Shown: one piece after another, positions 8,053 to 58,559 of the stretch | Numbering within the stretch: the first letter of the stretch is position 1 | How the letters are laid out: each line of letters begins with the position of its first letter | Origin: a bacterium CG_4_9_14_3_um_filter_65_15 | GTDB lineage: Bacteria; Krumholzibacteriota; Krumholzibacteriia; LZORAL124-64-63 | Direction of reading: 5' to 3' | Assembly: GCA_002790835.1 (NCBI GenBank) | Contig: PFVX01000079.1 | Coordinates: 3,130 to 67,129 of the forward strand | Length of the DNA: 64,000 nt | Program-made: the position numbers and the translations under genes | Notes under the pieces: generated by a model | What the model was told of the DNA's origin: nothing | Database searches by the model: none | The model's input: only the letters and a program-made list of their open reading frames with translations

Positions 8053-8282
8053 AAGACGGGTCGGTGCCCCGCGCCGGGTTGGGAAAAATGGGATGTCGAT
8101 CGTCGCGCCACGTGGAGGCGGCATTCCGCGAGAACCTGAAGTGGGGCATCCTGACTAAGGGGAACTATTTCGGGAGGCTGTTGTCAACCCTTTACCCCTG
8201 CTCGAATACCCCCTCCAAATGACCGGAATTTTCTCGGGTGAATGTTCGCACCTTGGGAAATCCTGCCTGAGAGTTGGTTATT

Positions 8283-10019
8283 ATGAAATCCCTTCACCCC
8301 GCAGTGTTGCTGCTGTTATTGGCCATTACCGCCACCGTGGCCGCAGGTGATGCCCCGGTGAACCGCCAGGTAAACCGGGAGTTGCACGAGGCGGCCAAAG
8401 GCGCGCCCCTGAATCTGGCTGACCTGGTCTTTGCCCTCAACCCCCGCTTGGGCCTGGGCTTTCCTTCCCAGAATGTGGACAACTACTACGTGTTCCCGCT
8501 GTGCGGCATGGGGCTGGTTCGCCTGACTTTGCTCTGGAGTAATTATGAGCCGTCCAGAGGGCAGTATGATTGGAGCGGGTTGGACAACAAGGTCCGGGTC
8601 CTGCAGGACCTCGGGATCGACATCTTCATGACGTTGCAGTCGGATGCCGATTGGGGCGTCGAACCATCGGATTTCCTGGCGGCCAACCACCCCCCCGCCG
8701 ACATGGCCGACTGGACCACATTCATGACGCACCTGGTGCAGCGCTACAACGGTGACGGCGTGGACGACTTGCCGGGCCTGCTCCGCCCGGTGCGCTATTA
8801 CCAGTTGGCCAACGAATGGCCTTCCCCGCAAAACATCCACGGCGGCTGGACCGGCACCATCGACCAGCTGATCGAATTCTTCAACGCTTCCTACGCTGCG
8901 GTCAAGGCCGCCGATCCCTCCGCCACGGTCGTCCTCGGCGGCATCCCTTCCATCGGGCTTGACGCCATGGTGCTCAACGCCGGGCAAGGTAACTACGTGG
9001 CCAGGCAATCGTACAACGAGACGGTCAAGGATTCCCTGACCGTCGCGATCGCCCAGGATCCCCGCATCGCCGAGGCGGTGGCCGTCCGAGAGCGCGTGCT
9101 GGCCGAAAGCCTTTACGACATGGTGGATCTTCACATGTACGGTCCGGTGGAATTCAACCAGTACCGGATCAGCCGCATCCGCCAGAACGTCGGTGACGTG
9201 CCCCTGGTCTCCTCCGAATGCGGCGGGCCGAATCTGGCCTACGATCCGGTCATCACCCCCGAAGAACACTTCCAGACCGCCATGGACATGAATCTCGACG
9301 CCCTGTCCCGAGGCCTGGTCTACACCATGTGGTTGTCCATGTTCGGACAGGAATACGTTCCCGGCATCGGCCCCACCTGGGGCAACTCCCAGCTTCAGCC
9401 CATCGACAAGAACCAGCAACCTACCGGGGGATTCTGGGCCTATCACCTGCTGGCGGCCATGTTGGACGGAATGGACAGCGTGGAAAAACCCGGCCCCGGC
9501 ATCTACATCATCCACCGGTATGACCAGCCCAACATCCATGTGGCCTGGCGGACGGACGCCAACACCACCTACCAGCTCCCGTCCACCGTCCATGCCCAGA
9601 AAATGATCGTGGTCACTTCTGCCCGGCTTGGCACGTACCAATTAGAACCCGTGCCTGCGAACGGGTTGTTGCAACTCACCGGTCCTTTGCCCATCGTGGT
9701 CAGCGAGATCCTTCCCGGAGGCGTCTCCGGAGATTCCGGCCCTCCGCACCCCACCGTGGCCCTCGGCCAGGTCTGCAACTTCCCCAACCCCTTCAACCCC
9801 GCCATGGAAATCCGATTCGTGCTGGGGGAGGACAGCCGGGTTCAGGTCGAAATATTCAACCTGAGGGGACAAAGGATCGCCACGTTGCTGGACAACGAGT
9901 TGCCGGCCGGACCCCACGGTGTTGTGTGGCACGCCGGGCAACAGCCATCGGGGACCTACTTCTACCGCATCACCGCGGCAGGAAACATCACAACCGGGCG
10001 CTGCGAGCTGGTGAAATGA
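8283..10019 (+). CDS. Secreted clan GH-A (TIM-barrel, GH5/GH42-like) glycoside hydrolase with a T9SS/Por-type C-terminal sorting domain
   Basis: Signal peptide MKSLHPAVLLLLLAITATVAA. W..YEPSRGQYDWSGLD, the ANEW acid/base-like motif and SSECGGP (nucleophile region) are present. The C-terminus CNFPNPFNPAMEIRFVL...YFYRI resembles the Por_Secre_tail / FlgD-Ig-like motif. An alternative start at 8274 is possible. Confidence 0.6.
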   Translation: MKSLHPAVLLLLLAITATVAAGDAPVNRQVNRELHEAAKGAPLNLADLVFALNPRLGLGFPSQNVDNYYVFPLCGMGLVRLTLLWSNYEPSRGQYDWSGLDNKVRVLQDLGIDIFMTLQSDADWGVEPSDFLAANHPPADMADWTTFMTHLVQRYNGDGVDDLPGLLRPVRYYQLANEWPSPQNIHGGWTGTIDQLIEFFNASYAAVKAADPSATVVLGGIPSIGLDAMVLNAGQGNYVARQSYNETVKDSLTVAIAQDPRIAEAVAVRERVLAESLYDMVDLHMYGPVEFNQYRISRIRQNVGDVPLVSSECGGPNLAYDPVITPEEHFQTAMDMNLDALSRGLVYTMWLSMFGQEYVPGIGPTWGNSQLQPIDKNQQPTGGFWAYHLLAAMLDGMDSVEKPGPGIYIIHRYDQPNIHVAWRTDANTTYQLPSTVHAQKMIVVTSARLGTYQLEPVPANGLLQLTGPLPIVVSEILPGGVSGDSGPPHPTVALGQVCNFPNPFNPAMEIRFVLGEDSRVQVEIFNLRGQRIATLLDNELPAGPHGVVWHAGQQPSGTYFYRITAAGNITTGRCELVK

Positions 10020-10160
10020 CCGGGATCAGCAGGTCAACCGCCAGAGTTTCGGCGGCCTTGATGCCGCCCGCATAGCCGGCACCTTCCCCGGCAGGATAGA
10101 GGCCCCTGGTGTTGACGCGCTGCAGGTCGGACTCGTTGCGGTTGATGCGCAGCGGCGACG
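9988..10160 (-). pseudogene. 3'-terminal remnant of a COG2509-type FAD-dependent dehydrogenase gene
   Basis: The minus-strand frame encodes ...RVNTRGLYPAGEGAGYAGGIKAAETLAVDLLIPVISPARSARL*, the conserved C-terminal GLYPAGEGAGYAGGI signature. The upstream portion of that frame (through the inverted repeat and gatD) is nonsense with no start. About 450 aa of the gene are missing. Confidence 0.5.
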
Positions 10161-10222
10161 AGGTGCGCGATTCCATCGCCGGAACTGGCAATCGGGGAAG
10201 ATCGAGTTCAACGATCCTGGTA

Positions 10223-10318
10223 CTGGAAGTAGGCCTCCGTCGGCCCTTTGCGAATAATCCGCAGCCGCGCAGCGGCGAGGACATTTCGCAAAGGGCCGAC
10301 GGAGGCCTACTTCCAGTG
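10223..10318. repeat. Perfect 33-bp inverted repeat (two arms separated by a 30-nt loop), predicted to form a long hairpin
   Basis: ACTGGAAGTAGGCCTCCGTCGGCCCTTTGCGAA ... TTCGCAAAGGGCCGACGGAGGCCTACTTCCAGT. The right arm overlaps the last codons and stop of gatD. Coordinates are +/-1. Confidence 0.9.
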
Positions 10319-11698
10319 GGAGGAGATGAACTCGTCCACCTCCGGAATCCCCCCCTGGAACACCAGGTACCCGTTATGGGGCTCCCGCTCGGTGGTCTCG
10401 CCGTTGACGGGGGAGAGCATGATGCGCTGGACCTCGTCATGGTCCCGGCTCTGGCCCAGGGCCCAGCCCAGCTTCACGTAGGCCACCTCCGGCAGCATGT
10501 TCGCCGCCGGGACCACGCCCAGTTCCATGATCTCCCGCCCGGTCTCGTACACGTACATCTGCACGTAGCCCCACAGGGTCTGGACCGTCATGTAGACGTG
10601 CACGCCGGCGTCGCGGGCGCGTTGCAGGGCCGGGTACAGGGGCTTGTTCACGTGGCCGAGGCCGGTGCCGGCGATGATGATGCCCTTGTATCCGTTGTCG
10701 ATCAGGGAGTCGATGATGTCGGGCTTCATGTTGGGGTAGTAGTAGACCAGGGACACCCGGTCGTCGAAGACGTCGATCAGGGTGACCTGGCCGTCGTCGC
10801 GCCGCCGGTTGTAGTCGGTGCGGAACGGCGTGACCCCGCTTCCGTCGATCTTGCCCAGGGGGATGTCGCTGAGGGTGCGGAAGGTCGAGCGATAGCTGGA
10901 GTGCATCTTGCGCACGCGGGTGCCCCGGTGCAGCAGGCCGTACTCGTCGCTGGTGGGCCCGAACATGCAGACCATGACCTCGGCGATGTCGCTGGTGGCG
11001 GCGGTGCGGGTGGCGTTGATGAGGTTGATGGCCGCGTCCGAACTGGGGCGGTCGCTGCTGCGCTGGCTGCCCACCATGACGATGGGCACCGAAGGATCCT
11101 GCACCATGAAGCTGAGCGCGGCTGCGGTGTGGTGCATGGTGTCGGTGCCGTGCCCGACCACGATGCCGGTCACGCCGCCGGCAATCTCCCGGGCGATGGC
11201 GCGTGCGGTGCCGATCCACTGCTCCGGACCCATGTTCTCGCTGAACACGCCGTACAGCTTCTCGGTCTCCATGTTGCAGATGTCCGCCAGCTCCGGCACC
11301 GAACCGTACAGCTCGCCGGGGCTGAAGGCGGGAATCACCGCACCGGTGCGGTAGTCGAGGCGGCTGGCGATGGTGCCGCCGGTGCCCAGCAGCTTGACCC
11401 GCGGCTTGCCGGGGTCCACAGGGAATGCCTTCTCGGGGATCTGGTAATTGGCGACCTTGCGGCCGAGCACGCTGATGGATTCGACGGTGTCGCAGCGGAC
11501 GCCGATGTTGTATCCGGTGTCCAGCTTCAACACGATGTGCAGTGCGTCGGCGGTTTCGCTGCGCGGCAGGATGAGCCCGGAAAAATCGCCGCGGTTCGTG
11601 TGCAGTGTGACCTGGCTCCAAACCGGGGCCTCTTCCCGCTGCAACAGATCCAGGGTGGGGATGCGGTAGCCTTTGAAGTCTGCGGCGGTTTGGCTCAC
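10307..11698 (-). CDS. gatD: Glu-tRNA(Gln) amidotransferase subunit D (archaeal type; N-terminal domain plus a type-I L-asparaginase domain)
   Basis: 463 aa with a GTG start overlapping the gatE stop. The asparaginase motifs VKLLGTGGTIAS and GIVVGHGTDTM are present. An N-terminal domain of about 100 aa precedes the asparaginase fold, as in GatD. It is adjacent to gatE. Confidence 0.8.
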   Translation of the reverse strand: MSQTAADFKGYRIPTLDLLQREEAPVWSQVTLHTNRGDFSGLILPRSETADALHIVLKLDTGYNIGVRCDTVESISVLGRKVANYQIPEKAFPVDPGKPRVKLLGTGGTIASRLDYRTGAVIPAFSPGELYGSVPELADICNMETEKLYGVFSENMGPEQWIGTARAIAREIAGGVTGIVVGHGTDTMHHTAAALSFMVQDPSVPIVMVGSQRSSDRPSSDAAINLINATRTAATSDIAEVMVCMFGPTSDEYGLLHRGTRVRKMHSSYRSTFRTLSDIPLGKIDGSGVTPFRTDYNRRRDDGQVTLIDVFDDRVSLVYYYPNMKPDIIDSLIDNGYKGIIIAGTGLGHVNKPLYPALQRARDAGVHVYMTVQTLWGYVQMYVYETGREIMELGVVPAANMLPEVAYVKLGWALGQSRDHDEVQRIMLSPVNGETTEREPHNGYLVFQGGIPEVDEFISSHWK

Positions 11699-13632
11699 GA
11701 CGTGCGCTCCCGGTTGCGGCCCTTGATCCAGCTGCGGACGGTGCGTCCGGGCACCCGCCCCAGCACACCCGGCATCACCCGGCCCATCAGGACCAGGTCA
11801 CGCTGCAGGGGGCTCTCAGGCAGTTCACCCGCGGGAATCGCCTGCAGAAGGTCTTCGACCGCGGCGCGGGCCTTTTCCCGGGGCCACGGCTCCAGCGGCT
11901 CGGATTCGGCGCTCCAGACACCCTCGGGAATCAGGTCTCCCGAGACCAGTTTGCGCACCGTATCGGCCCACCAGGGGCCGGCGGCGGCCGTCTGCAGGGG
12001 CCGCGGGCAGGATCGATCCAGCAGCAGGGAGGCGAGCTGGCTGGCGGTAAGGGCGGGGGTGTCGGACTCCTGCAGGATGGGCAGCAGGGCGGCGAAAAGA
12101 TCCCAGGCCCGGTGGCGACCGAGTCGGGCGGCCAGGTCGGGCCCCACGCCGGCCGTGCGGGCGATGTCTTCCCGCTTCCAGGGTGTCAGGGGAAGGCTGT
12201 CGTGGATATGTTCCAGCCGCTCGTCGCTCAGGCCGATGGGCGGCAGGTCGGTGTCCGGATACATGCGGTCGGCTCCCGGCAGCACCCGTTCGAAACCGTT
12301 GGTGCCGTCGTCCAGTGCCTGGCGGGTTTCCTCAGGCACGCCGACGAAGGCCTCACGGGCGCGAATGAGCACTTCGCTGACCGCGGTGGCGGCGTCCCGC
12401 TCGGAGCCCCAGACGAGGATGATGGGCACTTCGGGGCCGACGCGGCAGGTCTTGGCCACCCGCTCCCATTCACCGCTGCTGAGGGTGGGGACGTCCTGGG
12501 TGGACATCACCAGGTTGGGCAAGGTGTCCAGGCAGGCGATCACCCGGATGCGGTCGCTGAATTCCTTGAGAAAGCCCGTGCGGGGCTGGGTCTGCACCTG
12601 CAGCAATCCCTGGAAACCGGGCAGGGGCACGGCCATCACCGTGGCGCCCTTCTCCACGGCCTTGCCGATGAAGCGGCAGGCGGTGCCGCGCACGGCCGAG
12701 GTGACGTCGTTTCCGCCCTGGGGCAGGTATCCGGGTTTTGCGCCCCGATGTTCCAGTTCCCGGGCGATGGCCACGAGGGTGCGCTGACGCAGGGCCTCGT
12801 TGTGGGTCAACCGGGGGATGGCGCGCAGGCAGGGCACGCCCTTGATCTCGATGCGCGTGCCGCCGGTGACCGAGACGTTGACGTCCTGCCGGGCGGCGCC
12901 GCTGCCGGTGCGCACCAGACCGGTGGCCCGCACCAGGTGGCGCAGGACCTGGCCCACGGCCATCGCTTCGCGGGGGGTCGTCATGTCCGGGTCCGTCACC
13001 GACTCGATGAGCGGCATGCCCAGCCGGTCGGTGCGGTAGGTGCGCACGTGGCCCGCATCGGATACCTCACGGCAGGAATCCTCTTCGATGCTCAACTGGC
13101 GGATGTGGATCGACTTTTCGCCGCAGGGAATGTCGCCGTCGGTGCCGATGATGGCGGTGCGCTGGAATCCGGTGGGAATGCTGCCGTCCAGGTATTGCTT
13201 GCGGGTGATGTGGACCTCGCTGACCACGTTGCAACCCAAAAGCATGGTGATGGCGATGCTGATGTCCAGGGCCTGGTCGTCCATCTCGAAGGGCGGGGCG
13301 TCGTCCATCTCGTAGGTGCAGACGGTGTCCTTGTTCAGATGGTAGATGATGTCCTTGCGGGTCTTGAATTCCATCAGCGCCGTGCCGTCGTACTCGCCCA
13401 TTTCCGAGAGGGTGGGGCGCATGTGCCGCAGCACCTCGGCCTGGTGCTCGCCCTGGTTGTAAACCCCGGCGGGACACCGGCAGAAGAGCTTGCGGCGGGT
13501 CAGGAGCTGCTGGTGGATTTCCAGACCGCAGCGGAAGCCCAGATCGGCGTATTCGGCGTCCGATAGCGTCCCGAACAGGGGCAACGGGCCGCCTAGCCAG
13601 GAGTCGCTGAAGGCGGAGTGATCTCGTTCCAT
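11695..13632 (-). CDS. gatE: Glu-tRNA(Gln) amidotransferase subunit E (archaeal type, GatB-like)
   Basis: 645 aa from the ATG at 13632 (GGAAG ribosome-binding site). YADLGFRCGLEIHQQLLTRRKLFCRCP is the GatE/GatB cradle-domain signature. It also has an internal insertion domain and a C-terminal YqeY-like helical tail. Confidence 0.8.
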   Translation of the reverse strand: MERDHSAFSDSWLGGPLPLFGTLSDAEYADLGFRCGLEIHQQLLTRRKLFCRCPAGVYNQGEHQAEVLRHMRPTLSEMGEYDGTALMEFKTRKDIIYHLNKDTVCTYEMDDAPPFEMDDQALDISIAITMLLGCNVVSEVHITRKQYLDGSIPTGFQRTAIIGTDGDIPCGEKSIHIRQLSIEEDSCREVSDAGHVRTYRTDRLGMPLIESVTDPDMTTPREAMAVGQVLRHLVRATGLVRTGSGAARQDVNVSVTGGTRIEIKGVPCLRAIPRLTHNEALRQRTLVAIARELEHRGAKPGYLPQGGNDVTSAVRGTACRFIGKAVEKGATVMAVPLPGFQGLLQVQTQPRTGFLKEFSDRIRVIACLDTLPNLVMSTQDVPTLSSGEWERVAKTCRVGPEVPIILVWGSERDAATAVSEVLIRAREAFVGVPEETRQALDDGTNGFERVLPGADRMYPDTDLPPIGLSDERLEHIHDSLPLTPWKREDIARTAGVGPDLAARLGRHRAWDLFAALLPILQESDTPALTASQLASLLLDRSCPRPLQTAAAGPWWADTVRKLVSGDLIPEGVWSAESEPLEPWPREKARAAVEDLLQAIPAGELPESPLQRDLVLMGRVMPGVLGRVPGRTVRSWIKGRNRERTS

Positions 13633-13831: not shown

Positions 13832-14554
13832 GTGGTGCGTAAGAAGCGCAGAGGTTGCGATGTCCCCGAGGCGACCATTCATCGCCTTCCCCTGTACCTG
13901 GAGAAACTCAAGTTGTTGCAGGCCATCGGGGTGGAAGACGTCTCCAGCCGCCAGTTGGCCGAATCCCTGGATATCAAGGCGAGCCAGTTGCGGCACGATT
14001 TTCATTATTTCGGCGGCTTCAGCCGGCCCGGCCGGCCCTATCAAGTCGAAAAATTGGTGCCGGCCCTGGAACAGATCATCGGGATCGACGAACCGGTGCC
14101 GACCATCATCGTCGGAGCCGGCCACCTGGGCCAGGCCCTGGCCAATTATCAAAATCTGGGCCTGCAGGGTTTCCCCCTCCACGGCATTTTCGACGTCAAC
14201 CCGCGTCTGATCGGGCTGGAAATCCGCGGGCAGGCCATCCGGGACCTGGCGGATATGCCGGACATCGTCAAGCGTGACCACATCCTGATGGGGATCATCA
14301 CCGTGCCGGCGGCCAACGCCCAGCAGGTCGCCGACCGCATGGTCGAGGCCGGCATCGTGGGGATCTTCAACTTTGCGCCGACGGATCTGAAAGTGCCCGA
14401 AGGGGTTGTGGTGCGGAACGAGCGCATGGCCGTGGGCATCATGGCCCTGAGCTTCAAGGTCAAGTGCATCCTGGAATCCCGGTTGTCCGAGTCACCAGCG
14501 GATGAGGTCGGCGCCCCAGGTAAAACCACTGCCGAAGGCGAGGGTGACGACTAG
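13832..14554 (+). CDS. rex: Redox-sensing transcriptional repressor Rex
   Basis: The wHTH N-terminus IHRLPLYLEKLKLL...VSSRQLAESLDIKASQLRHDF and the Rossmann motif IIVGAGHLGQALANY are present. GTG start with a GAGGTGA ribosome-binding site. The 3' end overlaps the convergent fabH remnant. Confidence 0.85.
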   Translation: MVRKKRRGCDVPEATIHRLPLYLEKLKLLQAIGVEDVSSRQLAESLDIKASQLRHDFHYFGGFSRPGRPYQVEKLVPALEQIIGIDEPVPTIIVGAGHLGQALANYQNLGLQGFPLHGIFDVNPRLIGLEIRGQAIRDLADMPDIVKRDHILMGIITVPAANAQQVADRMVEAGIVGIFNFAPTDLKVPEGVVVRNERMAVGIMALSFKVKCILESRLSESPADEVGAPGKTTAEGEGDD

Positions 14555-15332
14555 GTTTCCCGGCTGGATGCGCCCGGCGGCGACCGCCTCGCTCAATGCG
14601 ATGGGGATGGTCGCCGCCGTCGTGTTTCCGTAGCGTTCGATGTTGCTGACCACCTTCTGCGCCGGCAGGCCCATGCGCGATCCCACAGCCTCGGTGATGC
14701 GCTGATTGGCCTGATGGGGCACCCGCAGATCCACCTCGTCGATGGTGTGCCCACCCCGTTCCAGGACCTCGTTGACGGCCTCGCAAAAACGCCGGGTGGC
14801 GTGCTTGAACACCAGCTCGCCGTCCATGGTGGGATAGTGCCGCCCCTGCTCGATCAGCCCCGGGGTGACGCGCTCCCGCACCACCGCGGTGGGAACTTCC
14901 AACCAGACGTCCTTGGCGAAGCGGCCCTGGCTGTGCAGGACCGAGGCCAGGACACCTCGGTCCTCCTCGGTGGCCTGAACGACCACGGCGCCGGCGGTCT
15001 TCAGCCCCAACAGTTCCTCGATGAAAACCCCGTTGCCGGGAAAGAAACAGTCGGGGTTCAAGGCGGCATAGATCACCAGGTCGATTTCCGACTTGTCGAT
15101 CCCCGCAGCGGCGATGGCGGCCGTGGCGGCGATGGCGGCCTTGGCCCCCAATTCGGCCCCCGATTCGGTGGACCAGCCGTTCTCATCGAGGGTGACCCCA
15201 CCGGCGTTCGCGGATCCCGCTGCGCTGGGAGATCCACTCGTCCGAGGTCTCCATCCATGGGGTCATCTCTTCGTTGGCGACGACACGCTCGGGAACATAG
15301 AATCCCGTCCCGGTGATGGCCGCTCTGGTCAT
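14492..15332 (-). pseudogene. fabH: fabH (3-oxoacyl-ACP synthase III) pseudogene with a frameshift and an internal deletion
   Basis: The N-terminal frame [44 protein letters not shown] then shifts by +1 in the G-run near 15196-15199. The downstream frame continues ...ENGWSTESGAELGAKAAIAATAAIAAAGIDKSEIDLVIYA...HQANQRI...GNTTAATIP...GSGFTWGADLIRW. Compared with E. coli FabH, about 58 aa spanning the catalytic Cys112 region (CPAFDVAAACAGF...IIFGDG) are missing at about nt 14995. Confidence 0.75.
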
Positions 15333-20351: not shown

Positions 20352-21056
20352 ATGGGCAAGGGCAGGTACAAGGGCCGCCGCGCGGCGGCCTTTGTCTTCG
20401 ATCTGGACGGAACGCTGATCGATTCGGGTGAGGACATCGCCCGGTCGGCGAATTTCGTGCGCGGTCATTTCTCCCTGCCCGAACTGCCGTTGCCGACGGT
20501 GATCGGTTTCGTCGGGGACGGCGTGGAGATGCTGATGCGCCGCGCCCTGGGGCACGAAACCAAAAGCGGAAATCCCGATCTGCCCGTGGCCCCGGAGCGT
20601 CTGCAGGATGCCCTCTCCGTCTTTCGCGACCACTACGGTCGCCACCTGCTCGATCATACCCGCCTTTATCCGGGGGTCCTGGAGGTGCTCATGCGCTTCC
20701 GCGCCTTTCCCCTGCTGCTGGCCACCAACAAGCCACGCGAATTCACCGACCCGATCCTGGCCGGCCTGGGTATTCGCGACGCCTTTGCCCGCATCATCGC
20801 CGGCGACGAGACTCCCGCCCGCAAACCGGATCCCGAGCATTTGCGCCGGGTCCTGGAGGGGACCCCCGTGGCCTGCGAGGAAGTCGTGGTGGTGGGGGAC
20901 AGCCCCAACGACATCGCCGCCGCTCACGGCCTCGGCGCCGTGGCCGTTGGCTGCACCTATGGTCTGGTGGAGCCGGGCCGGATCCGGGTGGCCGGGCCGG
21001 ATCTGCTGATTGACAGCATCGGGGAGCTGTCGGCCCTATTCCCATCCAGAGCTTAA
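20352..21056 (+). CDS. HAD-superfamily hydrolase (phosphoglycolate phosphatase-like)
   Basis: Motif I FVFDLDGTLIDS, motif III K (ATNKP) and motif IV VVVGDSPNDIAAA. Confidence 0.8.
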   Translation: MGKGRYKGRRAAAFVFDLDGTLIDSGEDIARSANFVRGHFSLPELPLPTVIGFVGDGVEMLMRRALGHETKSGNPDLPVAPERLQDALSVFRDHYGRHLLDHTRLYPGVLEVLMRFRAFPLLLATNKPREFTDPILAGLGIRDAFARIIAGDETPARKPDPEHLRRVLEGTPVACEEVVVVGDSPNDIAAAHGLGAVAVGCTYGLVEPGRIRVAGPDLLIDSIGELSALFPSRA

Positions 21057-44095: not shown

Positions 44096-44129
44096 GCAGC
44101 GGCCGCCTCCCGTGGGAAGCGGCCGCTGC
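44096..44129. terminator. GC-rich hairpin (11-bp perfect stem GCAGCGGCCGC / GCGGCCGCTGC, extendable to about 16 bp) between convergent genes
   Basis: Seen directly in the sequence. There is no clear U-tract, so it may be a bidirectional terminator or an RNA-stability element. Confidence 0.5.
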
Positions 44130-58227: not shown

Positions 58228-58559
58228 TCTTGCCCCAGGCCTGCGGTTCGTCGGCCACGCTGAGCGCGCCGCACACGATATCCCCGAAGACGATCGATTT
58301 TCCGCCGCCGGTCTTGGCCGGGAAGGTGAACATGTCCTCCCAGCCGCTGCCCTCTGCGGGGCGGGGGCTGGCGGACCTGCAGGACTACTACCGGATGCTG
58401 TCCGGGTCTGCGCACCCCGACCGGGCCTTGGCCCTGGCCCGGGCCCAGCGGCACATGATCGCGGGCGAGGGTGCGGCTGCGGCCGGAGGATTGGATAGCG
58501 GATTTCCCGGTTTCTGGGCCGGCTTCGTGCTCAGCGGGAACGGGTCCGCCGGTCCCTGA
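58212..58559 (+). pseudogene. C-terminal remnant of a CHAT (caspase-like) domain gene
   Basis: ..[10 protein letters not shown].. resembles the CHAT catalytic-Cys region (LVVLSACETA). ..VLAGKVNMSSQPLPSAGRGLADLQDYYRML.. resembles [29 protein letters not shown]. ..GFWAGFVLSGNG resembles HPYYWAPFVLIG. The frame is open only from 58212, and the N-terminal His-containing half is absent. Confidence 0.45.

What the first reader, a model, noticed from the sequence alone, without database searches (positions are those of the whole stretch)
10223..10318. 33-bp perfect inverted repeat (96-nt hairpin) straddling the gatD stop codon
Perfect complementary arms this long are rare in coding-dense DNA. This one overlaps the last four codons and stop of gatD and abuts the nonsense 5' side of a truncated gene remnant.

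It could be any of:
- a strong bidirectional terminator or RNA-stabilising stem
- a MITE or recombination scar marking the gatDE insertion boundary
- an assembly artefact (chimeric hairpin)

The 30-nt loop is itself GC-rich and partly self-complementary (CGCAGCCGCGCAGCGGCG).
Basis: seen in the sequence. Interest (0 to 1): 0.55.

Follow-up and report, generated by a model that had tools for sequence, protein, structure and literature searches.

The report
Conserved-cap palindrome after gatD stop
The perfect 33-bp hairpin at the end of gatD is real and is one copy of an uncatalogued family of gene-end hairpins: each copy has its own long stem, but all share a nearly invariant 25-base cap that also turns up sporadically in unrelated bacterial phyla.

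Summary
The perfect arms are 10222-10254 and 10285-10317, with a 30-nt spacer (RNA -97 kcal/mol, z about -14). It is the only such repeat in the window. It is not an assembly artefact, because seven other assemblies carry it identically.

Relatives with 90-92% identical GatD have a hairpin at the same place. Their 41-nt apex is identical, but their stems differ and still pair.

The 25-nt core is TGTCCTCGCCGC-NNN-GCGGCTGCGG. It forms a mini-hairpin with a bulged U and a U·C mismatch. It caps long, locus-specific, 97% Watson-Crick stems after other genes in Krumholzibacteriota-like contigs. In all 9 distinct loci examined it is sense to the upstream gene. Convergent genes each have their own copy. 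It also occurs sporadically in sphingomonads, Rhizobiales, a Clostridiales MAG and others. It is absent from Rfam, the searched phage and plasmid collections, and the literature.

The distal arm is an inverted copy of the gatD 3' end. Immediately beyond it lies a truncated FAD-dehydrogenase gene, and gene content there differs between lineages.

Best reading: a REP-like dispersed "capped palindrome", transcribed as the 3'-end hairpin of the gatED mRNA, with arms kept perfect by template switching. Its function is inferred, not shown.

The parts
10285..10317 (-). Proximal arm, the 5' arm on the gatD sense strand; 33 nt, perfect. It contains the gatD stop TAG (10307-10309), the last two codons (W, K) and 2 nt of the His codon, then 22 nt of 3' UTR.
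10255..10284 (-). Apex (30-nt spacer). On the minus strand it reads A-TGTCCTCGCCGCTGCGCGGCTGCGG-ATTA-T. It forms a mini-hairpin with a 5-bp apical helix, a UGC triloop, a bulged U, a U·C mismatch and a 2x2 internal loop.
   Evidence: Identical in orthologous loci L007, L009, L011 and L022.
10259..10283 (-). 25-nt conserved core (CORE), TGTCCTCGCCGC-TGC-GCGGCTGCGG. It is the only copy in the window.
   Evidence: A covariance model of the core scores 51.2 bits here; the next best hit scores 11.6 bits. Exact core matches: 13 loci among GTDB genome representatives and 34 metagenome loci.
10222..10254 (-). Distal arm, the 3' arm on the gatD sense strand; 33 nt. It is an exact inverted copy of the 22-nt 3' UTR plus TAG plus the last codons of gatD.
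10203..10221 (-). Decayed outer part of the distal arm. It is an imperfect inverted copy of gatD codons D-E-F-I-S-S-H, including the exact 8-mer CGAGTTCA. It ends at the junction with the FAD-gene fragment.
   Evidence: p about 0.03. L011 and L022 show the same decay.
10318..10336 (-). gatD coding sequence that pairs imperfectly with 10203-10221. It forms the outer part of the ancestral palindrome and is held in place by coding constraint.
10307..11698 (-). gatD, Glu-tRNA(Gln) amidotransferase subunit D, 463 aa.
   Evidence: GatD_N, Asparaginase, Asparaginase_C; 100% identical cluster P0001
11695..13632 (-). gatE (GatB_N catalytic domain). It overlaps the gatD start by 4 nt. The start follows the 645-aa gene call in relatives.
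9988..10176 (-). 3' fragment of an FAD-dependent dehydrogenase gene (COG2509 / PF21688 type), corresponding to about the last 60 of ~540 residues. It is called as a 62-aa ORF. Weak homology continues upstream to about 10203.
8274..10019 (+). Secreted-protein gene with a type IX secretion C-terminal sorting domain, convergent on the hairpin. Together with the FAD fragment it makes up the ~2.1-kb segment that lies between the hairpin and the Hexapep gene in this window but is absent in L007.

Best explanation
The hairpin is one vertically inherited copy of a dispersed, REP-like family of 'capped palindromes'.

Anatomy. Each member has a nearly invariant apical module, A-UGUCCUC-[short GC helix, UNC triloop]-CUGCGG-AUUA. 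This module has a fixed bulged U and a fixed U·C mismatch. It sits on top of a 24-42-bp, almost perfectly paired stem whose sequence is specific to each locus.

Proposed role. The element lies 18-90 nt after a stop codon and in the sense orientation. I therefore infer that it is transcribed as the 3'-terminal stem-loop of the upstream mRNA, here gatE-gatD. In this reading the long helix blocks 3'-exonucleases and/or ends transcription without a U-tract. The conserved asymmetric apex would be the part recognised by a specific factor, whether a protein or a nucleic acid.

How the arms stay perfect. I infer a DNA-level process of intrastrand template switching or fold-back copying at the palindrome. 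This copies changes from one arm to the other, and it once copied about 30 nt of the gatD 3' coding end into the distal arm.

Side effect. The palindrome makes the DNA just distal to it a rearrangement hot spot. That is where the truncated FAD-dehydrogenase gene and the secreted-protein gene were joined on.

Shown: the anatomy, family membership, conservation and covariation, the orientation bias, the inverted copy of coding sequence, and the variable neighbourhood.

Inferred: transcription of the element, its terminator or stabiliser role, factor binding at the apex, and the template-switch mechanism.
For: 1. The element is real and reproducible. Six other assemblies are identical over 361 nt, and L033 is identical over the ~165 nt compared.

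2. Orthologous loci carry the same apex on different stems.
- L007, L009, L011 and L022 have GatD 90-92% identical to the window's. Their fourfold-degenerate sites differ by 19-35%.
- All have a hairpin starting 0-3 nt from the gatD stop, with an identical 41-nt apex (GCGAA-A-CORE-ATTA-TTCGC).
- Their stems differ and remain 24-28 bp paired.

3. Covariation across 16 family members.
- All 24 of 24 basal pairs show changes on both sides.
- 97% of cells are paired, against 62.5% in shuffles and about 41% when the partner columns are slid.
- The covariation score is 0.852 against 0.189 in shuffles.

4. Diverged copies keep the architecture.
- The apical helix changes in a compensatory way: CGCCGC/GCGGCUG becomes CGCCC/GGGCUG or CGGCC/GGCCUG.
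- UGUCCUC, CUGCGG, the bulge and the mismatch stay unchanged.
- The predicted fold is identical.

5. Orientation follows transcription.
- All 9 distinct Krumholzibacteriota-like loci have the core sense to a gene ending 18-55 nt upstream.
- Over all taxa the count is about 18 sense against 4-5 antisense.
- In L052 and L058 two convergent genes each have their own sense-oriented hairpin.

6. Stems reach into the upstream coding sequence in several members.
- Window: 11 nt perfect plus about 19 nt decayed.
- L058a: 7 codons plus TAG.
- L052b: 6 codons plus TGA.
- This requires templated inverted copying of DNA.

7. Stem mispairs are 5 G·U against 5 A·C among 390 pairs. This fits maintenance at the DNA level rather than RNA wobble tolerance.

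8. Quasipalindrome template switching that perfects inverted repeats is an established mechanism (PMC7202029).

9. The neighbourhood is unstable.
- Six lineages show five different gene arrangements just distal to the hairpin.
- In L008 the breakpoint lies inside the distal arm.
- The FAD gene is cut at the end of the decayed arm.
Against: - There are no transcript data, so the terminator or stabiliser role is untested.
- No U-tract follows the stem. More distant GatD lineages use ordinary U-tract terminators after gatD, so a special element is not obviously needed.
- Stems of 33-45 bp are far longer than RNA function requires and would be RNase III substrates.
- The equal G·U and A·C counts give no sign of selection on the sense-strand RNA, although there are only 10 mispairs.
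- The sporadic cross-phylum distribution of an identical 22-nt core points to mobility or horizontal spread rather than a host function. So does its embedding in REP-like mosaics in sphingomonads and Rhizobiales.
- A few copies are antisense or inside operons: L036, L040, L017 and the hisF-upstream family.
- No binding factor or mobilising enzyme has been identified.
Confidence: 0.45

Rival explanations
1. A purely selfish, REP/REPIN-like DNA element. In this reading the 25-nt imperfect palindrome with its extrahelical base is recognised as a single-stranded DNA hairpin. The recognising enzyme would be a trans-acting HUH/tyrosine transposase of the RAYT or IS200/IS605 type, or another enzyme. 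That enzyme would seed or move the cap. Gene-end location and transcription would be incidental.
For: - The family is dispersed and low-copy, and its distribution across unrelated phyla is patchy.
- Several contigs end within about 140 nt of a core copy, as at other repeats: L015, L018, L025, L027, L030 and L037.
- In sphingomonads the core is one exchangeable apex of a multi-copy composite palindromic element. Plasmid copies of that element have other apices.
- The inner stems of one subfamily share CATACAAA..CCCCGGG between unrelated loci.
- The G·U to A·C ratio in stems is 5:5.
- The element is associated with rearrangements.
- Published REP superfamilies are also mostly downstream of genes. 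The CGTC/TGTC-tagged class lacks a known transposase (PMC3733652).
Against: - Orientation tracks transcription rather than a single replication direction. Adjacent convergent genes carry oppositely oriented copies about 50-140 nt apart.
- Stems are locus-specific, so the unit that would move is only about 25-41 nt, and no target-site duplication is seen.
- At gatD and at the S8-peptidase locus the element is inherited vertically.
- The core was not found in viral contigs, phages or plasmids.
- No transposase has been linked to it.
Confidence: 0.3
2. A repair scar without function. A strong GC mini-hairpin at a broken or stalled 3' DNA end folded back and primed synthesis. This created an inverted copy of the flank (the stem) and then joined to foreign DNA. 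The conserved cap would simply be whatever seeded the fold-back. In the boldest form, the cap is a templated addition by a reverse-transcriptase-like system.
For: - The distal arm is an inverted copy of the gatD coding end.
- A truncated gene is fused at the arm's outer end.
- Gene content distal to the hairpin differs between lineages.
- Back-to-back, oppositely oriented hairpins in L052 and L058 are what a healed two-ended break would give.
- The Mesorhizobium/Shinella copies are flanked by a 37-nt direct duplication of the hisF start.
- The two cores in L025 flank a compositionally foreign gene.
Against: - The apex is identical across lineages whose neutral sites have diverged 19-35%, which implies constraint.
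- The decayed outer arm is shared by the window, L011 and L022. The palindrome therefore predates the lineage-specific rearrangements, which lie outside it.
- The orientation bias toward sense is not predicted by this model.
- No bacterial end-capping system of this kind is known (my own knowledge).
Confidence: 0.12
3. An ordinary, locus-specific bidirectional terminator between gatD and the convergent secreted-protein gene. Its length and perfection would be chance or recent duplication.
For: - It is located between convergent genes and forms a GC-rich stem-loop.
Against: - There is no U-tract on either strand.
- The stem is 33+ bp and the apex is a 30-nt structured unit.
- The same apex recurs at other loci and in other phyla.
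- The FAD fragment separates it from the convergent gene by about 200 nt.
Confidence: 0.05
4. An assembly or library artefact, that is, a chimeric hairpin.
For: - Perfect palindromes can arise from fold-back chimeras.
Against: - Seven other assemblies carry the identical hairpin.
- The adjacent ORF is on record on 28 contigs.
- Orthologous hairpins are present in NCBI and ENA MAGs from other studies.
- The arms are short and embedded in continuous flanking sequence.
Confidence: 0.01

Closest known systems
REP / REPIN / BIME elements, including the GTAG- and CGTC/TGTC-tagged palindromic repeat superfamilies (Di Nocera et al. 2013, PMC3733652; REPINs, PMC3116915)
   Same: - Short GC-rich imperfect palindromes that are dispersed in the genome.
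- Mostly found just downstream of coding regions, and probably transcribed as RNA hairpins.
- Sometimes overlap genes.
- Patchy phylogenetic distribution.
- Associated with genome instability.
- The core starts with TGTC, a variant tag reported for CGTC repeats. One sphingomonad copy has CGTC.
   Different: - In REPs and REPINs the conserved sequence forms the stem and the loop varies. Here the conserved unit is the apex and the long stem is unique to each locus.
- Copy number looks low: 1 in 64 kb, and 1-3 per contig.
- The defining CGTC-REP features are not met by the core: an 8-9-bp stem starting with A/T pairs, a 4-5-nt loop and a CCA tail.
- A core with the same 22 fixed positions occurs across phyla, whereas REP families are lineage-specific.
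- No RAYT link is known.
Intrinsic (Rho-independent) terminators and 3' stem-loop mRNA stabilisers
   Same: - A GC-rich stem-loop immediately 3' of a stop codon.
- Sense orientation relative to the upstream gene.
- One per gene in convergent pairs.
   Different: - No U-tract.
- A helix of about 45 bp instead of 5-15 bp.
- The stop codon and last codons lie inside the stem.
- A sequence-conserved, asymmetric apex.
- More distant GatD lineages use classical terminators at the same place.
Quasipalindrome template-switch mutagenesis and palindrome-driven instability (PMC7202029; PMC5941160 on conservation of perfect inverted repeats)
   Same: - Explains the concerted evolution and perfection of the arms.
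- Explains outward extension into coding sequence.
- Explains rearrangements next to the palindrome.
   Different: - It is a mutational mechanism, not an element.
- It does not explain the conserved cap or the cap's spread.
Integron attC sites
   Same: - Structure is conserved more than sequence.
- Imperfect hairpins with extrahelical bases.
- Located at the 3' ends of genes next to variable gene content.
   Different: - In attC the conserved R/L boxes are at the base and the apex varies, the opposite of what is seen here.
- The RYYYAAC/GTTRRRY motifs are not visible in the arm sequences.
- No cassette array or integrase is seen among the genes annotated around the hairpin.
MITEs
   Same: - Small, non-coding and dispersed.
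- Hairpin-forming.
   Different: - No terminal inverted repeats shared by all copies.
- No target-site duplication.
- The mobile unit, if there is one, is only the 25-41-nt cap.

Membership tests
Intrinsic terminator | GC-rich stem-loop shortly after the stop codon | tested here: met
   The stop codon lies inside the stem.
Intrinsic terminator | Run of U (T) immediately 3' of the stem | tested here: not met
   The sequence after the distal arm on the gatD strand is ACCAGGATCGTTGAAC. The terminator scan finds nothing here. Other family members also lack a T-run.
Intrinsic terminator | Short stem (about 5-20 bp) and small loop (3-8 nt) | tested here: not met
   The basal helix is 33 bp and carries a 30-nt structured apex.
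REP / REPIN (RAYT-associated) | Many copies per genome sharing the palindromic stem sequence | tested here: not met
   The arm 33-mer is unique within this 64-kb window; it was not itself searched in the public collections. Among the loci recovered by core or GatD searches, only loci orthologous to this window carry the same stem. Only the apex recurs.
REP / REPIN (RAYT-associated) | GTAG (or CGTC) tag at one end of the palindromic unit | tested here: inconclusive
   GTAG is present in both arms, but it derives from the AAG-TAG gene end. The core begins with TGTC, and one copy has CGTC (PMC3733652).
REP / REPIN (RAYT-associated) | Cognate RAYT / IS200-like transposase in the genome | not tested
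   Whole genomes could not be scanned. No transposase is among the genes annotated near the hairpin.
CGTC-tagged REP (Di Nocera 2013) | Stem of 8-9 bp beginning with A/T pairs, a 4-5-nt loop and a CCA tail | tested here: not met
   The core helix is C/G from its first pair, the loop is 3 nt (T-N-C), and the tail is ATTA or G/C-rich flank.
MITE | Terminal inverted repeats conserved among copies, plus a target-site duplication | tested here: not met
   The stems differ at every locus. No direct repeat flanks the window copy.
Integron attC | R''/R' core sites (RYYYAAC / GTTRRRY) at the base of the hairpin and a variable apex | tested here: not met
   By reading the sequences, the arm bases carry no such motif, and the conserved part is the apex. 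No dedicated pattern search was run.
Any Rfam family | A match to a curated covariance model | tested here: not met
   Only two sub-threshold microRNA-precursor look-alikes matched, at 22-23 bits against gathering thresholds of about 100. There was nothing in 15 other loci.
CRISPR repeat | Tandem array of the unit separated by spacers | tested here: not met
   The core occurs 1-3 times per locus, isolated and never as a spaced tandem array.
Capped-palindrome family defined here | Apex A-TGTCCTC-[GC helix, T-N-C loop]-CTGCGG-ATTA with a bulged T and a T·C mismatch | tested here: met
   (51 bits)
Capped-palindrome family defined here | Locus-specific, near-perfect basal stem of at least 24 bp, sense to a gene ending less than 60 nt upstream | tested here: met

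The most novel reading that the evidence does not exclude
The 25-nt cap may be a self-contained, horizontally spreading module that creates palindromes. Once it is placed at a DNA 3' end or in a hairpin loop, it would fold back and prime copying of the flank. The placing agent would be an unknown enzyme, possibly a templated, reverse-transcriptase-like or HUH-type activity. The result would be a new perfect 'capped' hairpin at a gene end, together with a rearrangement junction. That would be a previously undescribed way of generating gene-end hairpins and genome rearrangements in bacteria across phyla.
Probability: 0.12. Interest if true: 0.9.

Novelty: new variant of a known kind. Interest (0 to 1): 0.62.

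Why it matters
If the reading is right, this is an uncatalogued class of gene-end element. It has a sequence-conserved, structurally asymmetric cap on an otherwise free-to-vary long helix, and it is shared by distant phyla.

It would matter in three ways:
- It gives a concrete, testable candidate for a U-tract-independent 3'-end signal, or a factor-binding hairpin, in a poorly studied phylum (Krumholzibacteriota).
- It is a clean natural example of concerted arm evolution. All 24 of 24 basal pairs covary and 97% of pairs are Watson-Crick, and the palindrome has grown into coding sequence.
- It marks a rearrangement hot spot, which is useful for interpreting synteny breaks and contig ends in MAGs.

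The cross-phylum identity of the cap is unexplained. It could point to a new mobile or templated mechanism.

Tried and rejected
- **Assembly artefact.** Rejected because other assemblies carry the identical hairpin.
- **Dispersed 33-mer or MITE.** The arm sequence is unique within the window.
- **gatDE as an inserted island.** Rejected by the conserved upstream synteny. GatD is 82-92% identical among the 120 best database hits, many named Krumholzibacteriota.
- **Rfam.** No family matched, in the window or in 15 other loci.
- **Literature by sequence.** No paper holds the core sequence on either strand. Keyword searches did not identify the motif.
- **Plasmids and phages.** Searching with the 40-nt apex gave only noise, E of 0.1 or worse.
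- **IMG/VR viral contigs.**
  - Exact core: 0 hits.
  - A gapped pattern gave 4 hits. They are unstructured coding matches.
- **CRISPR-repeat idea.** No arrays were found.
- **Small ORF starting at the apex ATG.** The downstream peptide is not conserved between lineages (read). The in-frame fusion with the FAD fragment in the window is probably coincidence.
- **Complementarity of the cap to rRNA or tRNA.** I considered this only from memory and found nothing convincing. It was not tested.
- **Hypervariable stems replaced faster than neutral.**
  - Not needed to explain the data.
  - L007, L009 and L022 stems differ by 8-24% in line with fourfold-site divergence.
  - The decayed outer arm is shared by lineages.
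  - Neutral drift with concerted arms is therefore sufficient.
- **Pfam and NCBIfam on the 78-aa remnant.** Both found nothing. PDB and the large protein database did identify it.
- **One malformed call.** Bad coordinates gave an error.
Full report
**1. Observation**

- The window carries a perfect 33-nt inverted repeat at 10222-10254 and 10285-10317, separated by 30 nt.
- Gapless extension gives 40-nt arms at 93% complementarity.
- The RNA fold is -97.6 kcal/mol on the + strand and -95.7 kcal/mol on the - strand (z -13.4 and -14.9). The DNA fold is -54.5 kcal/mol (z -13.8). No shuffle folded as well.
- The 33-mer has no other copy in the 64 kb even with 3 mismatches. No other inverted repeat in the window comes close.
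- gatD is 10307-11698 on the minus strand, and gatE lies upstream of it on the same strand. The gatD TAG stop at 10307-10309 lies inside the right arm.

**2. Not an artefact**

- The exact GatD protein is on record in six other JGI assemblies. All six contigs are 100% identical to the window over 361 nt spanning the hairpin.
- A seventh contig, L033, is identical over the ~165 nt compared.
- The adjacent 62-aa ORF is on record on 28 contigs.

**3. Surroundings**

- On the gatD strand the order is gatE, gatD, hairpin, then a 3' fragment of an FAD-dependent dehydrogenase gene.
- That fragment aligns to residues 486-528 of the 549-aa protein 3NLC (E 3.8e-10). It also aligns to many PF21688 proteins.
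- A convergent secreted-protein gene with a type IX secretion sorting domain follows at 8274-10019.
- The GatD hits place the organism in Krumholzibacteriota.
- In relatives the upstream order SPOR-FabH-Rex-GatE-GatD is conserved. gatDE is therefore not the insert.
- The DNA distal to the hairpin is what varies:
  - L007 has the Hexapep gene at +145.
  - L011 has an extra 233-aa gene.
  - L008 has a related 231-aa gene and lacks Hexapep and PALP.
  - L022 is unrelated over 3.5 kb.
  - The window has the FAD fragment plus the secreted-protein gene, about 2.1 kb extra.

**4. The key finding**

- Orthologous gatD ends in L007, L009, L011 and L022 carry a hairpin at the same place. These loci have GatD 90-92% identical to the window's, and their fourfold-degenerate sites differ by 19-35%.
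- The 41-nt apex GCGAA-A-TGTCCTCGCCGCTGCGCGGCTGCGG-ATTA-TTCGC is identical in all of them.
- The stems differ and still pair:
  - window: GGCCTCCGTCGGCCCTTTGCGAA
  - L007: GGCGGACATACACCCGGGGAGCGAA
  - L022: GGCGGGCAAACAAAGGCGGAGCGAA
  - L011: TTGCCCGACCCTTCGGTCGCGAA
- In L008 the distal arm is broken by a rearrangement.
- More distant GatD lineages have no such element. L010 and L065 have classical A-stem-U terminators, L012 has another hairpin, and L063/L064 have none. The element was therefore gained in one subclade.

**5. A family**

- The exact 25-mer core gave 13 loci among the genome representatives of 185,579 species. With the triloop left free it gave 34 metagenome loci. A rough hand estimate from base composition puts the chance expectation near 0.01.
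- In Krumholzibacteriota-like contigs (GC 0.55-0.66) the core, flanked by A and ATTA, caps stems of 24-42 bp that differ at every locus.
- The upstream genes include an S8 peptidase (orthologous in L013, L042, L043 and L047, again with different stems), a 2-oxoacid:ferredoxin oxidoreductase subunit, and type IX secretion substrates.
- A covariance model of the core finds one copy in the window, at 51.2 bits. The next best hit scores 11.6 bits.
- In other loci the model finds diverged copies whose apical helix has changed in a compensatory way (CGCCC/GGGCUG, CGGCC/GGCCUG). UGUCCUC, CUGCGG, the bulged U and the U·C mismatch stay fixed, and the predicted fold is the same.
- The triloop consensus is T-N-C.
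- On 16 members:
  - All 24 basal pairs show double-sided changes.
  - 97% of cells pair, against 62.5% in shuffles and about 41% when slid.
  - The covariation score is 0.852 against 0.189.
  - These counts would also arise from DNA-level copying of one arm onto the other, so they show constraint or concerted evolution rather than RNA function as such.

**6. Orientation**

- In all 9 distinct Krumholzibacteriota-like loci the core is sense to a gene that ends 18-55 nt upstream.
- Over all taxa the count is about 18 sense against 4-5 antisense.
- In L052 and L058 two convergent genes each have their own sense-oriented hairpin, only about 50-140 nt apart.
- This argues that orientation follows transcription rather than replication.

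**7. DNA-level signs**

- Stem mispairs are 5 G·U, 5 A·C and 2 others among 390 pairs. There is no sense-strand wobble bias.
- In several members the stem includes the stop codon and up to 7 codons of the upstream gene.
- In the window the distal arm copies gatD's last codons exactly. Beyond the perfect part, 10203-10221 is a decayed inverted copy of codons D-E-F-I-S-S-H, with the exact 8-mer CGAGTTCA (p about 0.03).
- L011 and L022 show the same decayed copy, p 0.02 and 0.04.
- The ancestral palindrome therefore had arms of at least 50 nt that included about 30 nt of coding sequence. That requires templated inverted copying. The inner 23-33 bp have since been kept perfect while the outer distal arm decayed.
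- FAD-gene homology appears to reach about 10203. The truncated gene is therefore joined at the outer end of the old arm.
- Quasipalindrome template switching is an established mechanism that makes imperfect inverted repeats perfect (PMC7202029).

**8. Other phyla**

- **Sphingomonads.** The core is the apex of the central hairpin of a roughly 150-nt composite palindromic repeat. Plasmid copies of the same repeat carry other apices.
- **Rhizobiales.** The core lies in another conserved mosaic after an acyl-CoA dehydrogenase-like gene. The gene identification is by C-terminal motif, from memory.
- **Mesorhizobium and Shinella.** The core lies upstream of hisF, flanked by a 37-nt direct repeat of the hisF start, in antisense orientation.
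- **A Clostridiales MAG.**
  - One core sits in the loop of an A/T-rich terminator-like stem.
  - A second, inverted core sits at the contig end.
  - The two flank a low-GC gene that I read, from its HxHxH motif, as HIT-family.
- **A GC-42% organism.** The core follows a gene I read as secY.
- **Databases.**
  - No Rfam family matches.
  - No paper holds the sequence.
  - There are no true matches in phages, plasmids or IMG/VR.

**9. Interpretation**

- The best-supported reading is a REP-like dispersed "capped palindrome" that is transcribed as the 3'-end hairpin of the upstream mRNA.
- In this reading the conserved asymmetric apex is the recognised part. The arms are kept perfect by intrastrand template switching, and the palindrome makes the adjacent DNA unstable.
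- The main rivals are a purely selfish DNA element recognised as an ssDNA hairpin, and a functionless fold-back repair scar.
- The published kind closest to it is the REP superfamily, especially the CGTC/TGTC-tagged repeats. Those are mostly downstream of genes, predominate in alphaproteobacteria, and have no dedicated transposase (PMC3733652). Their defining features are not met by the core, and the placement of conserved and variable parts is inverted relative to REPs and REPINs.
- I therefore file it as a new variant of a known kind, with function inferred only.

Noticed in passing
window 10307-13632 (-); L001-L012: This bacterial (Krumholzibacteriota) genome encodes the GatD/GatE-type Glu-tRNA(Gln) amidotransferase, which from my own knowledge is normally regarded as archaeal. 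GatD is 82-92% identical among the 120 best database hits, many named Krumholzibacteriota, and sits in the conserved order SPOR-FabH-Rex-GatE-GatD.
   Followed up: partly
window 14492-15151 (-) and upstream to about 15350: The FabH-like gene here is called at 219 aa with only the C-terminal domain. Relatives (L007, L008, L011) have 336 aa with both domains. The SPOR-to-FabH interval is about 170 nt shorter here, so the gene may be N-terminally truncated in this population. Its 3' end also overlaps the convergent Rex gene.
   Followed up: no
window 9988-10284 (-): The ATG inside the conserved apex is in frame with the FAD-gene fragment, giving a 98-codon ORF through the distal arm. The peptide downstream of the apex is not conserved in other lineages, so this is probably coincidence.
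   Followed up: partly
L025 1-740 (Clostridiales MAG UBA11385, DOFA01000049.1): Two core copies in inverted orientation (4-28 + and 685-709 -) flank a low-GC gene that looks HIT-family by motif. Its GC3 is 0.25 against 0.70 for the neighbouring gene. This looks like a foreign cassette bounded by caps. The contig ends at one cap.
   Followed up: partly
L019, L020, L024, L035, L057 (Mesorhizobium, Shinella and related metagenome contigs): Upstream of hisF, the first ~37 nt of hisF are duplicated as a direct repeat around a ~70-nt insert that contains the core in antisense orientation. This creates a short upstream ORF that starts like HisF.
   Followed up: no
L016, L018, L028, L036, L038, L040, L044, L046, L053; L060-L062 (sphingomonads): A multi-hairpin composite repeat of about 150 nt (AATCCTCCCC...GGGGAGGGGGACC...GGTGGAGGGG-apex-CCCCTCCACC...) occurs in several copies per replicon. 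The apex of its central hairpin is exchangeable, and the 25-nt core is one of the variants.
   Followed up: partly
L014 5637-5661 (Zetaproteobacteria MAG): The exact 25-mer lies antisense inside a gene I read as ClpA-like, encoding PQPRSGED. There is no flanking inverted repeat, so this is probably a chance or coding match and not a family member.
   Followed up: no
window 20368-20395 and 44096-44129: Two short GC-rich near-perfect palindromes: ACAAGGGCCGCCGCGCGGCGGCCTTTGT, and GCAGCGGCCGCCTCCC..GGGAAGCGGCCGCTGC. They look like ordinary terminator-type hairpins and are unrelated to the cap family.
   Followed up: no
window 58333-58359 (+): This stretch matches the split pattern TGTCCTC-N-CTGCGG but has no apical helix, and no flanking inverted repeat was listed there. 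I take it as a chance match.
   Followed up: partly
L008/L021/L059 versus L009: These two populations have identical GatD protein (fourfold sites differ by 3.7%) but differ by a rearrangement whose breakpoint lies inside the distal arm of the hairpin. It removed the Hexapep and PALP genes. This is a very recent event at the palindrome.
   Followed up: partly
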